Assembly: GCF_044324785.1 (NCBI RefSeq)
Contig: NZ_CP172127.1
DNA length: 64,000 nt
Origin: Escherichia coli
Lineage (GTDB): Bacteria > Pseudomonadota > Gammaproteobacteria > Enterobacterales > Enterobacteriaceae
Strand: one strand, 5' to 3'
Every line of letters starts with the position of its first letter. The stretch's first letter is position 1. Shown one piece after another: positions 15,585-20,165 of the stretch. A model generated the notes under the pieces. The model saw only the letters and a program-made list of their open reading frames with translations. It was not told the origin of the DNA and ran no database searches. The position numbers and the translations under genes were made by a program.

Positions 15585-16877
15585 TTACCTGTTTTCCCAT
15601 AATCTCAGCATCGCTTTGTGCTCGTCTGTCAGCACAATCTGCGGGCGTCTGGCTCGAATATAGCTAATCGCTTCATTAACGGTTTTACAGTGTCCGTAAC
15701 ATAACAACCATGCCGCCACCACCAGCGCACTGCGCGATAATCCCAATGCACAATGGACCAGAACGCTGCCTTGCTCTTCGCGTAATGTTTCCAGCATCGC
15801 CACGGCCTTTCGGAGCTCCCCCTCTTCCGGAACCACCAGATCCAGCATCGGTACACAAAAATAGAGTCGATCTTTTGTGGCTCGTCCGCGAGGGAATTCA
15901 AAGGTGACGTCCAGAACCGCATTCTGTGCCGGAATATGTCGTGGAAACGCCCCTAAATAAACACCAGCCGTAATTTTGCTTACCGGCTCCAGGCGAAGGC
16001 AAAACCAACGCATAGACAGCCACATCCCGATGCGCCATGGCAATGTCAGCCAGTAAACGGCGGGCGGGAGTTTCCCTTGACTATCTTTACCTGTTGTTAT
16101 CGCGCCAAGCCCACCGTACCCACGGCCAATAATGAGTAGCGATAATACTGGCCAACATAACCAGACTGACCACCATAACTGAAGCATTATCATTAGCTCC
16201 ATCAACACAATGCACGAGCCCGCTCCTACGACATATGGCAGTGCTATTTTGATTCGACGTTGATCAGGTTTCTGATAATTCCAACGACGGTCGACGGGCA
16301 CCATCCAGTCAATTAACATACCTACCGCCAGCCCTGTGATGACATCAATAAAATGATGCTGCCAGGTCGTCAGCGTCGAAATGGCGATGAGTAAAAACCA
16401 TCCGCCGCAGACTTTACGCCACCTCACAGCCAGATGCTGACGAAAGTGACGCCAAAGTAGCCAGCAGAGAATAATATGCAGCGAAGGAGACTGGTTATAA
16501 GGCAGATCAAACAATTCAAGTTGCGAAAATAACCATCCTGTCACCCCACTCACTTCAGGACGGATAAAACTAAACTTCAGCGGATAGAGAAAAAAACCGC
16601 AGCAGGCCATTACCGTTGCCAGAATAAGCCGGTGGACCAGACGGCGCTGCTCAAATGTCGAGCTACAAACGAACAGCGAAAATCCATATAAAAGATCCAG
16701 ACTCCAGTAAGGAACAATAGTCCAGGGAAGAAAAGGGATCGCCGTTTCCCAACCGAATACCTGACTGGGGATATCATGGTTGTTAAGATCCTGAGTCGCG
16801 GTGAACTGATTAAGAAATCCATAGGTGAAGAAGAAAAACGGGGCCAGCAACAATAACCAGCCAGCTCCTTGTAGCAA
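15585..16877 (-). CDS. ynbD: membrane protein with PAP2-like region and C-terminal dual-specificity (CX5R) phosphatase domain
   Basis: 430 aa if initiated at TTG (LLQGAGW...), avoiding a 92-nt overlap with ynbC; active-site motif [10 protein letters not shown]; last gene of ynbABCD. Confidence 0.75.
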
Positions 16878-16890
16878 TACGTTCCGGCGT

Positions 16891-18648
16891 TCAGTTATCA
16901 CGACGCACCGCCATCGAAACCGTAAAAATACCCCACTCATCAATCCGTTGTGTGCATTTATCGAATCCAGCATCATGCACAAGCGAATCCATCTCCCCTT
17001 GCGAACGCACGCGCATCACCCACGGTTTACCATCTTTATGACTGGTTAACACCCCGGCAATCAGTTCCAGTTGTGGGTGCCATGGCTGCCCGGTGTAGAT
17101 GAGAATGCCACCCGGTTCGATGGCATTGGCAAGACCTGCGAGGGAGTTTTTTACCTGCTCATTTTCGGGAAAAAGCTCATACAGTCCAGAGACAATCGCC
17201 AGCGTAGGCCGCGGAGTTAACGCGCTGAGTTCCTCCGGGTTAAACGCATCGCCCTGTTCATAACGCACCCGACCAGACATTCCCCGTTGGGCAATCATCT
17301 CTTGCCCCTGTGCAACATTTAACTCACTGTAATCACGTAACAAAATATCGCATACGGCAGGTTCATACTCCAGCGCATCCAGTACATAGCGCCCATGCCC
17401 TGCGGCAATGTCAACCACGCGGATGGCTAAACCTTTAGCGTGGAGATCGGCAACGGCTTGTTTAATCAGCATTTGTAAATGGGTTTTGCGCTGGCGAATA
17501 CCGCGCCAGCCAACACTGTTCAGGTAGATTTTGTCGATTAAGCGCCCGAATGCGTTACTGCCTTGTGGTTGATTTTGATAGACATAATCCAGCGAACTGC
17601 CTGAATCAAAGCCGGTGCTCATTCCGAGATGCAGGCCCGCAGAGTGCGCCCCGAACAGTTTCATCGCCTTTCGCATAAAGCGATACGCCAAATCAACCGG
17701 CGATAACGGCACGGGTCCACCAGAAAGGAGCCGCCATCGATCCGCTGATGGTCCTGTGCGGTCTTCATGCTGATAATCAAATTTTTGCGACTTGTTAGCA
17801 TATAAGCGACTAATAAAGCTTTGCATTTTTTCAAATGCCTGCGCCCTGTTCTCTTCACCCAACGTGTCGTGATAAAAGCCTGGCAGCAGATGCAGCTCTT
17901 TCAGAGGGCTACGTAATCTCTGATAAAAATCAATCTGCGGTTGGCGATGCACCACATAGTCATCGCCTGATATCAGAAGTTGCGTGGGGAGCGTAATCGC
18001 CGCCGCATCGCTAACAATACGTTCAGACGTTTTATAGAGATCGAGCAAGATATTGACGGCAATCGCCCGTGTGATCAGCGGATCATTATTGAAACTCGCC
18101 ACCCGTTGCCGATCGTGGGTCAGATAACGCCCTTTCACATAGGAATTAATAAAAAACAGACCACGCAGACGATGCCATAACGCCAGCCCAGGACGTGCCA
18201 GCGGCACATACAATTTAACCTTAAAGGCCGGAGAAGCCAGCAGTAGTCCGCGAATAGCAGGCGCATAATCATGAACCCATGTGGCAACCAGCACTGCGCC
18301 GACGCTTTGCGCGATCACAACCACCTCTTCCAGTCCGACCTGGCTGTCGCTGGCAGCAAAACGGACAAATTCATCGACATCCTGCACTGAACGCGCAAGA
18401 GATGGGCTATAACCACGCGGCCCTGACGTTTTTCCATGCCCTCGGGCATCCCAGGCATAAAAAGCAGTATCTGGCATTGTCAGTTCATCAACGATATGTT
18501 GTAGACGACCAGAATGTTCATGGCCACGATGAAATAAGACGATGACCTTTTTCACCCCTGGCTGTAAAGCGGGCCAGCGCCGATAAAACAACGCTGTATT
18601 ATCACTGGTGGTAAAAAAATGTTCCCCAGGGATGCGTGAATTTTCCAT
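16891..18648 (-). CDS. ynbC: bifunctional alpha/beta-hydrolase / SAM-dependent methyltransferase
   Basis: 585-aa ORF; N-terminal hydrolase fold ([13 protein letters not shown] nucleophile-elbow variant), C-terminal SAM motif [11 protein letters not shown]. Confidence 0.8.
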
Positions 18649-18663
18649 TTACTCTATTTTCCT

Positions 18664-19560
18664 TCAGTAACAGCAGTAGCGAATAAAATAAAAAAATACC
18701 GGAGCGGTGAAAATTAATGAGTCAATCCTGTCAAGGAGTCCGCCATGTCCTGGTAATAGTTTTCCGCTATCTTTAACACCAACATCTCGTTTGATGGCTG
18801 ACATCACTACATCGCCGCAAAAACCACTAATACCAATTAACAAACCCGCTAATAATGCCTGTAATGTATCTAGCGGTGTCAGCAACGGTCCAATAATCAG
18901 TGACGCAATCATGGTGGTGATTACGCCGCCCATCAGACCTTCCAATGTTTTTCCCGGGCTGACTTTAGGGACCACTTTTCTTCTGCCGCAGGATTTTCCC
19001 CATAAATACTGTGCAATATCGTTTGACTCGGTTAATGCCAAAAGAAATAACACCAGTAACGCCCCGCCCTGGATATTTGTGGTTGGCAACATTAATAACC
19101 AGGCGGCATGACTCAAGGTGAAAACGGTCATTATCCAGCCACAAAAAATGGCACTCACGGTATGCAGAAAACCAGAGGGGTCACCCACTAAAACTCGCCA
19201 GGTGGCTAATATCAGAAACCCAGCCAAAGGTATAAATAACAGAAACAGCTCAAAGCAATTAAAACCGATAAGCAAATAGTTAAGAGGAATACCCCAATAT
19301 AACCAACGCGGAAAATGTACAGATATAAGCGTACAATATTCTTTCAATGCCAGAAAACTTATCAGCGCAAAAAACGTCAATGTCATCCAGCGTGGACCTG
19401 AAATCACCATTGAAAAACAAATGACGATGCCCCACCAGGTACGAATACGTAATGTAACTTCATCCCCTTTTCTCTCCGGTAACCGCCATACTAGAAAACG
19501 GTTTATCAGCGTTGCTAAAATTAACAACGCGAAAAGTGTTGCCAGAGATTTTTCCAGCAT
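18664..19560 (-). CDS. ynbB: CDP-diglyceride synthetase (CdsA)-like phosphatidate cytidylyltransferase paralog
   Basis: 298-aa polytopic ORF with CdsA signature [28 protein letters not shown]; start codon overlaps ynbA stop (TAATG). Confidence 0.85.
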   Translation of the reverse strand: [298 protein letters not shown]

Positions 19561-20165
19561 TATCTTTCAGCGCTCATAAGAAGCACACTCCGACAACGAT
19601 TAATCGCAGTCCAGAGAAGCAGAATTGAAGCAATGCTCCATAAAAGATTATTCCATTGCATCCATTGTGGATAAATGGCAATGGCCAGCCCCCACAGACC
19701 AAATATTAACGCGCGATCGCTTTTGCCAAATGGACCGACATAACTACAAATACCGTTAATCGTCTGCGCGAGTAAACCGCAAAACTCGGTCAATATGGTG
19801 CAAAATAACATGAGTATCACGAGTGATGCATTACTTTCAGGTAAAAATAAAAACGGTAAATAGAGCGCAATATCGGAAATAACATCGCCAGTCTCATTCA
19901 AAATCGCCCCAAGACGTGTTTGCTGATTGCACTCGCGCGCCAACATGCCATCCAGCGCATTGAGTGCCATACGAATAAAAAGCACGATGGGCAATAGCAA
20001 AAAGAGGATGGGTTGTGCGACCAACATCAACAGCAATCCGGTAAAAAGAGAAAGCGCCAGTGCAGCAAGAGTGATGTGATTCGCTGTAACATGGTGCTTA
20101 TAAAGCCAAAACATCGTCGGCCTTAACAGCGACTGAAAGAGCGGTTTTATCTGGTAGAGCGTCAT
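19560..20165 (-). CDS. ynbA: CDP-alcohol phosphatidyltransferase family protein
   Basis: 201-aa polytopic ORF (start MTLYQIK) with DG..AR...GD...D-like motif (LDGMLARECNQQTRLGAILNETGDVISD). Confidence 0.8.
   Translation of the reverse strand: MTLYQIKPLFQSLLRPTMFWLYKHHVTANHITLAALALSLFTGLLLMLVAQPILFLLLPIVLFIRMALNALDGMLARECNQQTRLGAILNETGDVISDIALYLPFLFLPESNASLVILMLFCTILTEFCGLLAQTINGICSYVGPFGKSDRALIFGLWGLAIAIYPQWMQWNNLLWSIASILLLWTAINRCRSVLLMSAER

What the first reader, a model, noticed from the sequence alone, without database searches (positions are those of the whole stretch)
15585..20165. ynbABCD: translationally coupled operon that reads as a cryptic CDP-diacylglycerol lipid head-group pathway
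Seen: four same-strand genes with 1-nt (TAATG) to 15-nt junctions. YnbA has a CDP-alcohol phosphatidyltransferase-like motif. YnbB has the full CdsA signature ([25 protein letters not shown]). YnbC fuses an alpha/beta hydrolase (lipase/lysophospholipase-like) to a SAM methyltransferase ([11 protein letters not shown]). YnbD fuses a polytopic PAP2-like domain to a CX5R dual-specificity phosphatase ([10 protein letters not shown]). Inference: the set mirrors CdsA plus PgsA plus a phosphatase, with added methylation and acyl hydrolysis, so it could make or remodel a non-canonical, possibly methylated, phospholipid or lipid-linked alcohol. The product and inducing condition are, as far as I know, undefined. 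ynbA, ynbB and upstream ydbD look AT-rich, consistent with old horizontal acquisition and possible H-NS silencing.
Basis: partly seen in the sequence, partly recalled or inferred. Interest (0 to 1): 0.6.

Follow-up and report, generated by a model that had tools for sequence, protein, structure and literature searches.

The report
Orphan ynbABCD phospholipid operon in E. coli
This is the annotated but largely uncharacterised E. coli ynbABCD operon, which turns out to be a cut-down copy of a six-gene lipid module conserved across Proteobacteria that probably makes and then re-uses an unidentified minor phospholipid.

Summary
Four same-strand (minus) genes, ynbA-B-C-D, lie at 15585-20165 with a 1-nt overlap and 15-nt and about 13-nt gaps. 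All quoted motifs are present.

The reading as a CDP-diacylglycerol head-group pathway is plausible, and comparative genomics strengthens it. In 80 loci from about 39 genera, ynbA, ynbC and ynbD stay together. ynbB usually travels with a PlsC-type acyltransferase, and a small membrane protein follows ynbD. E. coli has lost the last two.

New details:
- YnbA is closest to phosphatidylinositol-phosphate (PIP) synthases, but two of its four signature aspartates are invariantly asparagine.
- YnbD's membrane half most resembles sphingomyelin/IPC-synthase-type head-group transferases and faces the periplasm. Its Cys-phosphatase half is cytoplasmic.
- The genes are under purifying selection, yet 15% of complete E. 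coli genomes lack them.

YnbB makes CDP-diacylglycerol in vitro, supports synthesis of the glycolipid MPIase and is cold-induced. [quoted passage not shown] H-NS silencing is untested.

Verdict: a real, already annotated, partly studied operon of moderate interest.

The parts
19560..20165 (-). ynbA: CDP-alcohol phosphotransferase, 201 aa, closest to PIP synthases. Its signature is N69-x2-D72-G-x2-A-R-x8-G-x3-N90-x3-D94-x3-D98.
   Evidence: ORF and start. Pfam PF01066 in 26/26 family members. Best NCBIfam models are archaetidylinositol-P synthase (7e-22) and PIP synthase (2e-12), both below cut-off. Profile vs PDB gives Mtb PgsA1 6h53 at 3.5e-12 over the full length. N69 and N90 are invariant in 77/77 orthologs.
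18664..19560 (-). ynbB: CdsA paralogue (phosphatidate cytidylyltransferase), 298 aa. Its start overlaps the ynbA stop by 1 nt (TAATG).
   Evidence: Only the C-terminal half matches CdsA (NF008635, aa 161-291, 4.8e-32, 111 bits vs cut-off 385). T. maritima CdsA 4q2g, 3e-23. Signature conserved in 66 orthologs. Experimental data: PMC6362211, PMC7018664.
17851..18555 (-). ynbC N-terminal half (aa 32-266 of the 585-aa CDS 16891-18648): monoacylglycerol-lipase-like alpha/beta hydrolase with triad Ser115/Asp230/His260.
   Evidence: Pfam Hydrolase_4, 1.5e-66. Aligns end to end with Mtb and human monoglyceride lipases (1e-14, 1e-9). Triad residues invariant.
16903..17826 (-). ynbC C-terminal half (aa 275-582): class I SAM-dependent methyltransferase of the uncharacterised family PF12147. 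The methyl acceptor is unknown.
15993..16877 (-). ynbD N-terminal half (aa 1-295 of the 430-aa form; the start codon is uncertain because the ORF is open to 16982). Eight-helix membrane domain with PAP2-type motifs P-S-L-H134 and S167-x6-H174-H-x2-D178. Its nearest fold is sphingomyelin-synthase/IPC-synthase type. The motif loops face the periplasm.
15591..15962 (-). ynbD C-terminal half (aa 306-429): dual-specificity (Cys-x5-Arg) phosphatase domain with H375-C376-x5-R382 and general-acid candidate D346. Predicted cytoplasmic.
   Evidence: Pfam DSPc, 3.5e-27. PDB DSP/PTP matches with aligned catalytic loop. C, R and D conserved in 72 orthologs. Topology.
20166..20335 (-). ynbA-ydbD intergenic region (GC 38.8%). 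It should hold the BglJ-RcsB-activated ynbA promoter. The only match to the published core wwTTCykA is TATTCTGA at 20250-20257 (weak candidate).
   Evidence: Sequence. GC. Promoter and BglJ-RcsB box mapped in K-12: PMC3950696. The 8-mer alone is not informative, with 38 hits vs 35 expected in the window.
15546..15575 (.). Perfect 11-bp hairpin in the 53-bp spacer between the convergent ynbD and azoR stop codons. Candidate bidirectional terminator; it has no T-run.
   Evidence: RNA fold -23.6 kcal/mol, z = -3.96, 0 of 200 shuffles as stable. Not called by the terminator scan, which requires a T-run.

Best explanation
ynbABCD is the E. coli remnant of a self-contained, laterally mobile six-gene module. 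The module builds a low-abundance, non-canonical glycerophospholipid from its own CDP-diacylglycerol pool and then processes its head group on both faces of the inner membrane.

Proposed steps:
1. In the full module, a PlsC-type acyltransferase makes phosphatidate. E. coli has lost this gene.
2. YnbB converts phosphatidate to CDP-DAG. This is shown in vitro in the literature.
3. YnbA is a PIP-synthase-like phosphotransferase with a remodelled metal site. It condenses CDP-DAG with a still-unknown anionic alcohol, probably a phospho-alcohol, to give phosphatidyl-X-phosphate (inferred).
4. The cytoplasmic Cys-phosphatase domain of YnbD removes the terminal phosphate (inferred). This parallels PIP and PGP phosphatases.
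5. The periplasm-facing domain of YnbD, which resembles sphingomyelin/IPC synthases, uses the flipped lipid. It either transfers phospho-X to another acceptor, releasing diacylglycerol, or cleaves the lipid (inferred).
6. Cytoplasmic YnbC deacylates and methylates an intermediate or by-product. This is the least certain step.

In E. coli the operon is normally quiet. It is switched on through the ynbA promoter by BglJ-RcsB, and ynbB is switched on by cold. The reported contribution of YnbB to MPIase synthesis is best read as spill-over of its CDP-DAG-forming chemistry, not as the purpose of the module.
For: Shown here:
- Gene order, junctions and domains.
- ynbA, ynbC and ynbD are co-located on one strand in essentially all of 81 loci from Enterobacterales, Pseudomonas, many Betaproteobacteria and a Bradyrhizobium. 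ynbB is present in 66/81 and a PlsC-type acyltransferase sits beside it in about 63.
- No other flanking gene is conserved; the best reaches 7 of 37 genera. The module is therefore self-contained.
- Superficieibacter and Enterobacteriaceae LSJC7 carry the six-gene form at the same azoR-hrpA site as E. coli.
- All predicted catalytic residues are conserved across orthologs.
- The YnbA family is closest, over its full length, to PIP synthases. It keeps D2, D4 (the presumed base in PgsA1, PMC6506517) and the basic residues K148/R151/R190, which align with PgsA1's phosphate site R152/R155/R195.
- The YnbD N-domain's nearest folds are SMSr and Aur1.
- Topology puts the His motifs on the periplasmic side and the DSP domain in the cytoplasm.
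- dN/dS is 0.05-0.23 within E. coli.

From the literature:
- YnbB makes CDP-DAG in vitro but cannot sustain bulk phospholipid synthesis (PMC7018664, PMC6362211). That fits a low-flux dedicated pool.
- BglJ-RcsB activates the ynbA promoter.
- ynbA, ynbC and ynbD rise together with the BglJ/RcsB regulon.
- The experimentally dissected Bacteroides cluster uses the same logic of PIP synthase, PIP phosphatase and Aur1-like transferase (PMC9246714).
Against: - No product has been detected, and no enzyme other than YnbB has been assayed.
- The alcohol substrate is unknown, and no substrate-making gene is linked to the module.
- YnbA lacks two of the four canonical metal-binding aspartates and the Arg/Lys after D4 that is critical for inositol-phosphate binding in PgsA1. 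Its chemistry may therefore differ from a standard phosphatidyl transfer.
- E. coli and Pseudomonas are not known to make ceramide (own knowledge), so the acceptor of any transfer is unidentified.
- The methyltransferase fold gives no clue to its substrate.
- E. coli lacks the acyltransferase and the small membrane protein. In addition, 15% of complete genomes lack the operon entirely, so the pathway may be incomplete or dispensable in this species.
Confidence: 0.5

Rival explanations
1. The whole operon is dedicated to making the essential glycolipid MPIase. YnbB makes GlcNAc-PP-DAG, and YnbA, YnbC and YnbD perform further, so far unassigned, steps such as forming or trimming the pyrophosphate-linked lipid or modifying the glycan.
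For: - YnbB overproduction raises MPIase and restores it when CdsA is depleted. With Tam41 co-expressed, YnbB complements the cdsA knockout (PMC6362211, PMC7018664).
- ynbB is cold-induced along with MPIase (PMC11413397 and bioRxiv 2026.06.05.730299).
- PAP2-type enzymes commonly act on pyrophosphate-linked lipids (own knowledge).
- The other MPIase biosynthetic enzymes are unknown.
Against: - MPIase is reported to be essential, yet 804 of 5,426 complete E. coli genomes have no trace of the operon and 339 more have only fragments.
- The ynbB knockout leaves MPIase unchanged.
- The conserved core of the module is ynbA-ynbC-ynbD. Proteus, Providencia, Morganella and Xenorhabdus carry it without ynbB.
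- No paper in the searchable library links ynbA, ynbC or ynbD to MPIase.
- CdsA alone is reported to be sufficient.
Confidence: 0.15
2. The module is a lipid salvage or remodelling system, not a biosynthetic route to a new head group. The SMS-like domain acts as a phospholipase-C-type enzyme on exogenous or damaged phospholipids. The lipase-like hydrolase and the acyltransferase exchange acyl chains. YnbB and YnbA feed the recovered phosphatidate back into phospholipid.
For: - The monoacylglycerol-lipase-like hydrolase and a PlsC-type acyltransferase form a plausible deacylation/reacylation pair.
- The module is frequent in host- and soil-associated genera.
- It is induced with envelope-stress regulons.
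Against: - A dedicated PIP-synthase-like transferase with an invariant special motif and a dedicated Cys-phosphatase would be unnecessary for simple recycling.
- The hydrolase is always fused to a methyltransferase, which salvage does not explain.
- No transporter or lipid-uptake gene is conserved beside the module.
Confidence: 0.15
3. In E. coli the operon is a functionless remnant. Having lost the acyltransferase and the small membrane protein, the four remaining genes are silent passengers on the way to deletion.
For: - The acyltransferase and small membrane protein are missing, although close relatives have them at the same locus.
- The operon is absent or fragmentary in 21% of complete genomes.
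- Deletion strains grow normally.
- Expression needs BglJ, which is itself H-NS-repressed in the laboratory.
Against: - All four ORFs are intact, with every catalytic residue conserved.
- dN/dS is 0.05-0.23 against a divergent E. coli allele, at dS of about 0.08-0.12.
- A specific activator site at the promoter is retained in K-12.
- YnbB is enzymatically active.
Confidence: 0.1

Closest known systems
Bacteroides thetaiotaomicron inositol-lipid cluster BT_1522-BT_1526 (PMC9246714)
   Same: It has the same three-part logic in one gene cluster: a CDP-alcohol phosphotransferase of PIP-synthase type, a phosphatase for the phosphorylated lipid intermediate, and an Aur1-like head-group transferase. 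It also includes an extra small membrane protein. Its distribution is patchy and looks laterally exchanged.
   Different: - The ynb module has no inositol-phosphate synthase or any other linked substrate gene.
- Its phosphatase is a Cys-x5-Arg DSP domain fused to the transferase-like domain, not a PgpA-type enzyme.
- It adds a CdsA paralogue, a PlsC-type acyltransferase and a hydrolase-methyltransferase fusion.
- Its hosts are not known to make ceramide (own knowledge).
- Direct sequence comparison with the BT proteins was not done.
Mycobacterial and actinobacterial phosphatidylinositol-phosphate synthases (PgsA1, PDB 6h53; RsPIPS 5d91)
   Same: Best full-length sequence and profile match for YnbA. 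D2, G, A, R, G and D4 of the signature are kept, as are basic residues aligned with the phosphate-binding site.
   Different: - D1 and D3 are invariantly Asn in the YnbA family.
- The Arg/Lys after D4 that is needed for inositol-phosphate binding is Val and is not conserved.
- NCBIfam scores are far below the equivalog cut-offs.
CdsA and the CdsA/YnbB route to MPIase compound I (GlcNAc-PP-DAG)
   Same: YnbB shares the catalytic C-terminal half and the signature with CdsA. It makes CDP-DAG and supports MPIase synthesis.
   Different: - The N-terminal half is unrelated.
- YnbB cannot replace CdsA for bulk phospholipid synthesis.
- ynbB sits in a conserved module with a phosphotransferase and an acyltransferase, which the MPIase model does not address.
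Sphingomyelin synthase-related protein (SMSr) and yeast IPC synthase Aur1 (lipid phosphate phosphatase-type transferases)
   Different: - Sequence identity is only 11-14%.
- The lead over hydrolytic PAP2 enzymes is small.
- YnbD has two extra helices and a fused cytoplasmic phosphatase.
- No transferase activity or acceptor is known.
Canonical E. coli PgsA-PgpA/B/C pathway, and the DSP-fold PGP phosphatase PTPMT1 of mitochondria (the latter from own knowledge)
   Same: The scheme is the same: CDP-DAG plus a phospho-alcohol gives a phosphorylated lipid, which is then dephosphorylated. PTPMT1 shows that a DSP-fold enzyme can do the second step.
   Different: - YnbA scores much lower against PgsA models (1e-6) than against PIP-synthase models.
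- PTPMT1 was not among the PDB sequence matches of the YnbD DSP domain listed (best 60 of 111 shown). This is a functional analogy only.

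Membership tests
CDP-alcohol phosphotransferase (PF01066) | Significant match to the family profile over the transmembrane core | tested here: met
   PF01066 at 6.4e-9 for the window protein, and in 26/26 aligned orthologs. Full-length alignment to PgsA1.
CDP-alcohol phosphotransferase (PF01066) | Signature D1xxD2GxxAR...GxxxD3xxxD4 with four metal-binding aspartates (as defined in PMC6506517) | tested here: not met
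   YnbA reads N69-x2-D72-G-x2-A-R-x8-G-x3-N90-x3-D94. D1 and D3 are Asn in 77/77 orthologs.
Phosphatidylinositol-phosphate synthase (NF045883) / archaetidylinositol-phosphate synthase (NF040950) | Score above the curated equivalog cut-off | tested here: not met
   47 bits vs cut-off 170, and 78 bits vs cut-off 180.
Phosphatidylinositol-phosphate synthase | Basic residue directly after D4 (R94 in PgsA1), critical for inositol-phosphate binding | tested here: not met
   The aligned residue is V95, and the position is not conserved in orthologs.
Phosphatidylinositol-phosphate synthase | Conserved phosphate-binding pocket (R152, R155, R195 in PgsA1) | tested here: inconclusive
   Invariant K148, R151 and R190 align to these positions in the profile alignment. 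No structure or ligand test was done.
Phosphatidate cytidylyltransferase (CdsA) | CdsA signature S-x-[LIVMF]-K-R-x4-K-D-x-[GSA]-x2-[LIF]-[PG]-x-H-G-G-[LIVMF]-x-D-R-[LIVMFT]-D (pattern quoted from own knowledge of PROSITE) | tested here: met
   [27 protein letters not shown] is present at aa 254-280. Key residues are conserved in 66 orthologs.
Phosphatidate cytidylyltransferase (CdsA) | Full-length equivalence to CdsA (curated cut-off; ability to replace CdsA) | tested here: not met
   Only aa 161-291 match, at 111.5 bits vs cut-off 385. The literature reports no complementation of a cdsA knockout, although YnbB makes CDP-DAG in vitro.
PAP2 superfamily | Motifs C1 K-x6-R-P, C2 P-S-G-H and C3 S-R-x5-H-x3-D (own knowledge of the family), plus the fold | tested here: inconclusive
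   - C2 is P-S-L-H134 (invariant).
- C3 is S167-T-x5-H174-x3-D178. S, H and D are invariant, but the Arg is missing.
- C1 has only R106-P107, and the Lys is not conserved.
- The Pfam match is weak (3e-4).
Sphingomyelin synthase / IPC synthase type head-group transferases | Closest fold, with a His/His/Asp catalytic set on the outer face of the membrane | tested here: met
Sphingomyelin synthase / IPC synthase type head-group transferases | Transfer of a phospho-head group from a glycerophospholipid to a lipid acceptor | not testable with these tools
   This needs an enzyme assay or lipidomics.
Dual-specificity (Cys-based) phosphatase | H-C-x5-R-[ST] loop with an upstream general-acid Asp and a profile match | tested here: met
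   H375-C376-A-L-G-L-S-R382-S and D346 align with the catalytic residues of solved PTP/DSPs. DSPc at 3.5e-27. C, R and D are conserved.
Monoacylglycerol-lipase-like alpha/beta hydrolase (Hydrolase_4) | Ser-Asp-His triad with a nucleophile elbow | tested here: met
   A-Q-S115-V-G, D230 and H260 are invariant. The sequence aligns along the whole domain with Mtb and human MGL. Pfam 1.5e-66.
Class I SAM-dependent methyltransferase | Rossmann-like fold with a glycine-rich SAM motif and an acidic residue after strand 2 | tested here: met
Operon (single transcription unit) | Same strand, short or overlapping junctions, no internal terminators, one promoter, co-transcription | tested here: inconclusive
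   - Spacing is met.
- Terminator-like sites are not above chance: 3 found vs 6.6 expected.
- ynbA, ynbC and ynbD are co-regulated in one transcriptome study.
- No direct transcript mapping is available here.

The most novel reading that the evidence does not exclude
The ynb module is a previously undescribed envelope-modification system of Proteobacteria. It builds a dedicated donor phospholipid on the cytoplasmic face: the private CDP-DAG pool, the Asn/Asn-variant phosphotransferase and the Cys-phosphatase make phosphatidyl-X. The periplasm-facing sphingomyelin/IPC-synthase-like domain of YnbD then transfers phospho-X onto a non-ceramide acceptor in the envelope. The hydrolase-methyltransferase tailors the donor or recycles the diacylglycerol by-product. 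That would give E. coli and its relatives a new lipid class or surface decoration that is switched on by BglJ-RcsB and by cold.
Probability: 0.2. Interest if true: 0.8.

Novelty: new variant of a known kind. Interest (0 to 1): 0.5.

Why it matters
E. coli's phospholipid metabolism is usually treated as fully mapped. Yet this conserved operon encodes what looks like a complete side-branch of that metabolism, under purifying selection, with no known product.

Three things make the question directly testable:
- The operon is the reduced form of a six-gene module that is widespread in Proteobacteria.
- Its phosphotransferase carries an invariant non-canonical active-site motif.
- Its 'phosphatase' is half a sphingomyelin-synthase-like enzyme facing the periplasm.

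This also bears on the open problem of which enzymes make the glycolipid MPIase. The module context suggests that YnbB's role there may be secondary to its role as CDP-DAG supplier for YnbA.

Tried and rejected
1. My first idea was that Asn at the D3 position of YnbA removes the catalytic base and so points to a phosphate nucleophile, giving a pyrophosphate-linked product like MPIase compound I. I rejected it. In PgsA1 the presumed base is D4, which YnbA keeps; D1 and D3 are metal ligands.
2. A 28-sequence YnbC alignment was too diverse for the locus search. A 10-sequence one worked.
3. The first neighbour clustering was contaminated by shadow ORFs overlapping the module in high-GC genomes. 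I redid it with segments outside the module only, and no conserved extra gene emerged.
4. The fold search of the methyltransferase half did not identify the acceptor. The top hit is an uncharacterised protein and the rest are generic.
5. The published BglJ-RcsB core wwTTCykA is too degenerate to locate the site: 38 hits vs 35 expected in the window. The single intergenic match is only a candidate.
6. Three literature searches found nothing:
   - PF12147 / Methyltransf_20.
   - The combination of enzyme names.
   - Operon names; that search returned two papers, one on BglJ-RcsB (already used) and one on unrelated Bacillus genes.
7. The 2019 BBRC paper on YnbB and the 2023 FEMS paper on cold induction are not held. 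Their content is cited only through papers that summarise them.
8. H-NS repression of ynbA: the only paper with both terms did not test ynbA.
9. The simple promoter and terminator scans were at or below chance for the region.

Full report
**What is there.**
- The window is Escherichia DNA. The 5-kb stretch matches 5,417 of 5,426 complete E. coli genomes, with a best identity of 98.3% and most at 96-97%. RefSeq annotates the same four genes there as ynbA, ynbB, ynbC and ynbD, between azoR/hrpA and ydbD/pdxI.
- The genes lie on the minus strand: ynbA 20165..19560, ynbB 19560..18664, ynbC 18648..16891 and ynbD 16877..15585.
- The ynbA stop and ynbB start share one base (TAATG). ynbB and ynbC are 15 nt apart. 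ynbC and ynbD are 13 nt apart with the RefSeq TTG start, but the ynbD reading frame stays open up to 16982, so its start is uncertain.
- ynbA, ynbB, ydbD and the spacer between ynbA and ydbD have 39-45% GC. The flanking housekeeping genes have 51-54%, and ynbC and ynbD about 50%.

**Domains and catalytic residues.**
- **YnbA** is a CDP-alcohol phosphotransferase (PF01066). Its best curated models are the archaetidylinositol-phosphate and phosphatidylinositol-phosphate (PIP) synthases, well ahead of PgsA, but all are far below cut-off.
- **YnbB** matches CdsA only in its C-terminal, catalytic half.
- **YnbC** fuses a monoacylglycerol-lipase-like alpha/beta hydrolase to a methyltransferase of the uncharacterised family PF12147.
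- **YnbD** fuses a membrane domain with a weak PAP2_3 match to a strong dual-specificity phosphatase (DSP) domain.
- Across 66-81 orthologs every predicted catalytic residue is conserved:
  - Ser115/Asp230/His260 and the SAM motifs in YnbC.
  - His134, His174 and Asp178 in the YnbD membrane domain.
  - Asp346, Cys376 and Arg382 in the YnbD DSP domain.
  - The CdsA signature in YnbB.

**The operon is part of a larger conserved module.**
- The fused YnbC architecture has 404 clusters (at 50% identity) with E below 1e-30. It stays full-length down to about 32% identity.
- A genome scan with a YnbC alignment matched at least 582 species, of which 80 loci were kept. They come from Enterobacterales, Pseudomonas, many Betaproteobacteria and a Bradyrhizobium.
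- In all 81 loci (the 80 plus the E. coli N3 locus L001 fetched earlier) a ynbA homolog lies upstream of ynbC on the same strand. In 79 a ynbD homolog follows ynbC. ynbB is present in 66.
- Three layouts occur:
  - A-B-AT-C-D-SMP in Citrobacter, Hafnia, Buttiauxella and relatives.
  - A-C-D-SMP-AT-B in Pseudomonas and Betaproteobacteria.
  - A-C-D without B or AT in Proteus, Providencia, Morganella and Xenorhabdus.
- AT is a PlsC-type acyltransferase with H-x4-D and FPEGTR motifs. It is found beside ynbB in about 63 loci.
- SMP is a fast-evolving membrane protein of about 135-160 aa that follows ynbD.
- Outside these six genes nothing is conserved: the best flanking family occurs in 7 of 37 genera. 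The module is therefore self-contained, and no linked gene names the alcohol substrate.
- Superficieibacter and Enterobacteriaceae LSJC7 have the six-gene form at the same azoR-hrpA position as E. coli. E. coli therefore lost AT and SMP by deletion in place.

**YnbA has a conserved non-canonical active site.**
- I aligned YnbA to the M. tuberculosis PIP synthase PgsA1 (PDB 6h53). The family signature D1xxD2GxxAR...GxxxD3xxxD4 reads N69-x2-D72-G-x2-A-R-x8-G-x3-N90-x3-D94 in YnbA. These residues are invariant in 77 of 77 orthologs.
- In PgsA1, D1, D2 and D3 hold Mg-1, D3 and D4 hold Mg-2, and D4 is the presumed catalytic base (PMC6506517).
- YnbA therefore keeps the base but has a metal site with two fewer carboxylates. 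This is a selected family trait, not decay.
- The basic residue after D4, which is critical for inositol-phosphate binding in PgsA1, is Val in YnbA and is not conserved.
- On the other hand, invariant K148, R151 and R190 align with PgsA1's phosphate-binding R152, R155 and R195.
- I infer an anionic acceptor, probably a phospho-alcohol that is not bound like inositol phosphate. That would make a downstream phosphatase necessary.

**YnbD works on both faces of the membrane.**
- The hydrolytic PAP2 enzymes come next: LpxE 12.0, PgpB 11.2 and LPP1 10.3, with about 150 residues aligned.
- The PAP2 motifs are partial. P-S-L-H and S-x6-H-x3-D are invariant, but the Lys of motif 1 and the Arg of motif 3 are missing.
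- Charge distribution places the motif loops in the periplasm (2 Lys/Arg) and the opposite loops in the cytoplasm (about 19 Lys/Arg). The DSP domain therefore sits in the cytoplasm.
- This arrangement fits a two-step use of one lipid: dephosphorylation inside, then head-group transfer or cleavage outside.

**What the literature already says.**
- YnbB overproduction raises MPIase. YnbB cannot replace CdsA for growth. Its deletion does not change MPIase (PMC6362211).
- YnbB makes CDP-DAG in vitro and restores MPIase but not bulk phospholipid (PMC7018664).
- cdsA and ynbB are up-regulated in the cold (PMC11413397 and a 2026 preprint).
[quoted passage not shown] H-NS repression was tested for other targets but not for ynbA.
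- ynbA, ynbC and ynbD rise together with the BglJ/RcsB regulon after plasma stress, and ynbA rises about 3-fold in an acid-tolerance study.
- No paper in the searchable library addresses ynbA, ynbC or ynbD biochemically, the PF12147 family, or the module in other bacteria.

**Status in E. coli.**
- The operon is present at 80% coverage or more in 4,283 of 5,426 complete genomes. It is fragmentary in 339 and absent from 804.
- Where present it is under purifying selection. dN/dS is 0.05-0.23 against the EDL933 allele, at dS of 0.08-0.12, with no stop codons.
- It is thus a dispensable but maintained accessory locus. This fits poorly with a dedicated role in making an essential glycolipid, and poorly with simple decay.

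**Best explanation and rivals.**
- Best explanation (confidence 0.5): the module is a dedicated CDP-DAG-dependent branch.
  - AT and YnbB supply a private CDP-DAG pool.
  - YnbA makes a phosphatidyl-X-phosphate.
  - The DSP domain of YnbD dephosphorylates it.
  - The periplasm-facing SMS/Aur1-like domain of YnbD transfers or cleaves the head group.
  - YnbC tailors an intermediate.
- The closest experimentally dissected system is the Bacteroides inositol-lipid cluster, which combines a PIP synthase, a PIP phosphatase and an Aur1-like transferase (PMC9246714). The ynb module differs in its phosphatase type, its extra enzymes, its lack of a substrate gene, and hosts that are not known to make ceramide.
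- Rivals: an MPIase-dedicated operon (0.15), a lipid salvage or remodelling system (0.15), and a functionless remnant in E. coli (0.10).
- Shown: gene structure, domains, synteny, the motif variant, fold neighbours, topology by charge bias, distribution and selection.
- Inferred: every enzymatic step except YnbB's CDP-DAG synthesis.

**Verdict.** However, the operon is already annotated, and YnbB and the promoter have been studied. The added value lies in the six-gene ancestral module, the invariant Asn/Asn phosphotransferase motif, and the transferase-like, two-sided architecture of YnbD. I rate it a new variant of a known kind of pathway, interest 0.5.

Noticed in passing
window 9540-10820: A very AT-rich patch of about 1.25 kb (GC 0.33-0.36) lies between a ydcF-like gene and hrpA. 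It carries two small plus-strand ORFs. The first (9927-10421, 164 aa) is a SUKH/SMI1-KNR4 family protein, the kind usually found as immunity proteins of polymorphic toxin systems. It looks like an orphan immunity islet.
   Followed up: partly
window 23774-31459 (minus strand): The ydbA-like autotransporter is intact here (2,561 aa). It contains 9.8 near-identical tandem copies of a 294-bp (98-aa) unit at 27902-30781. A paper describes it as a pseudogene in MG1655, and as full length in about 42% of phylogroup A strains (PMC4951805).
   Followed up: partly
window 15546-15575: A perfect 11-bp hairpin (-23.6 kcal/mol, z = -4.0) sits in the 53-bp spacer between the convergent ynbD and azoR stop codons. 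It has no T-run, so the terminator scan missed it.
   Followed up: partly
window 15585-20165 versus E. coli genomes: - The locus is unusually polymorphic for E. coli. The best match is only 98.3% and most genomes are at 96-97%. dS against EDL933 is 0.08-0.12.
- Five matches lie on plasmids instead of chromosomes.
- Some genomes carry internal deletions that join a ynbA remnant to the methyltransferase half of ynbC.
   Followed up: no
proteins P0001, P0123, P0151: Some database entries show YnbC with long N-terminal extensions. One is a single 889-aa E. coli entry that also carries the CdsA-family domain PF01148, an apparent YnbB-YnbC read-through. Two are distant homologs of 807 and 927 aa. 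They could be natural fusions or annotation artefacts.
   Followed up: no
L013 (Citrobacter sp. Cu233, second locus) and L012, L017: Citrobacter sp. Cu233 carries two copies of the module on different contigs (L004 and L013). The second is more divergent (66% YnbC identity) and has truncated ynbA and ynbD matches. Other loci have ynbA-ynbC-ynbD without ynbB. This suggests repeated gain, loss and decay of the module.
   Followed up: no
window 20336-22648 (minus strand): The ydbD gene upstream is annotated 'DUF2773 domain-containing bactofilin'. It is as AT-rich as ynbA and ynbB (42.9% GC) and lies on the same strand only 170 bp away. It is not part of the conserved module in other genera.
   Followed up: partly
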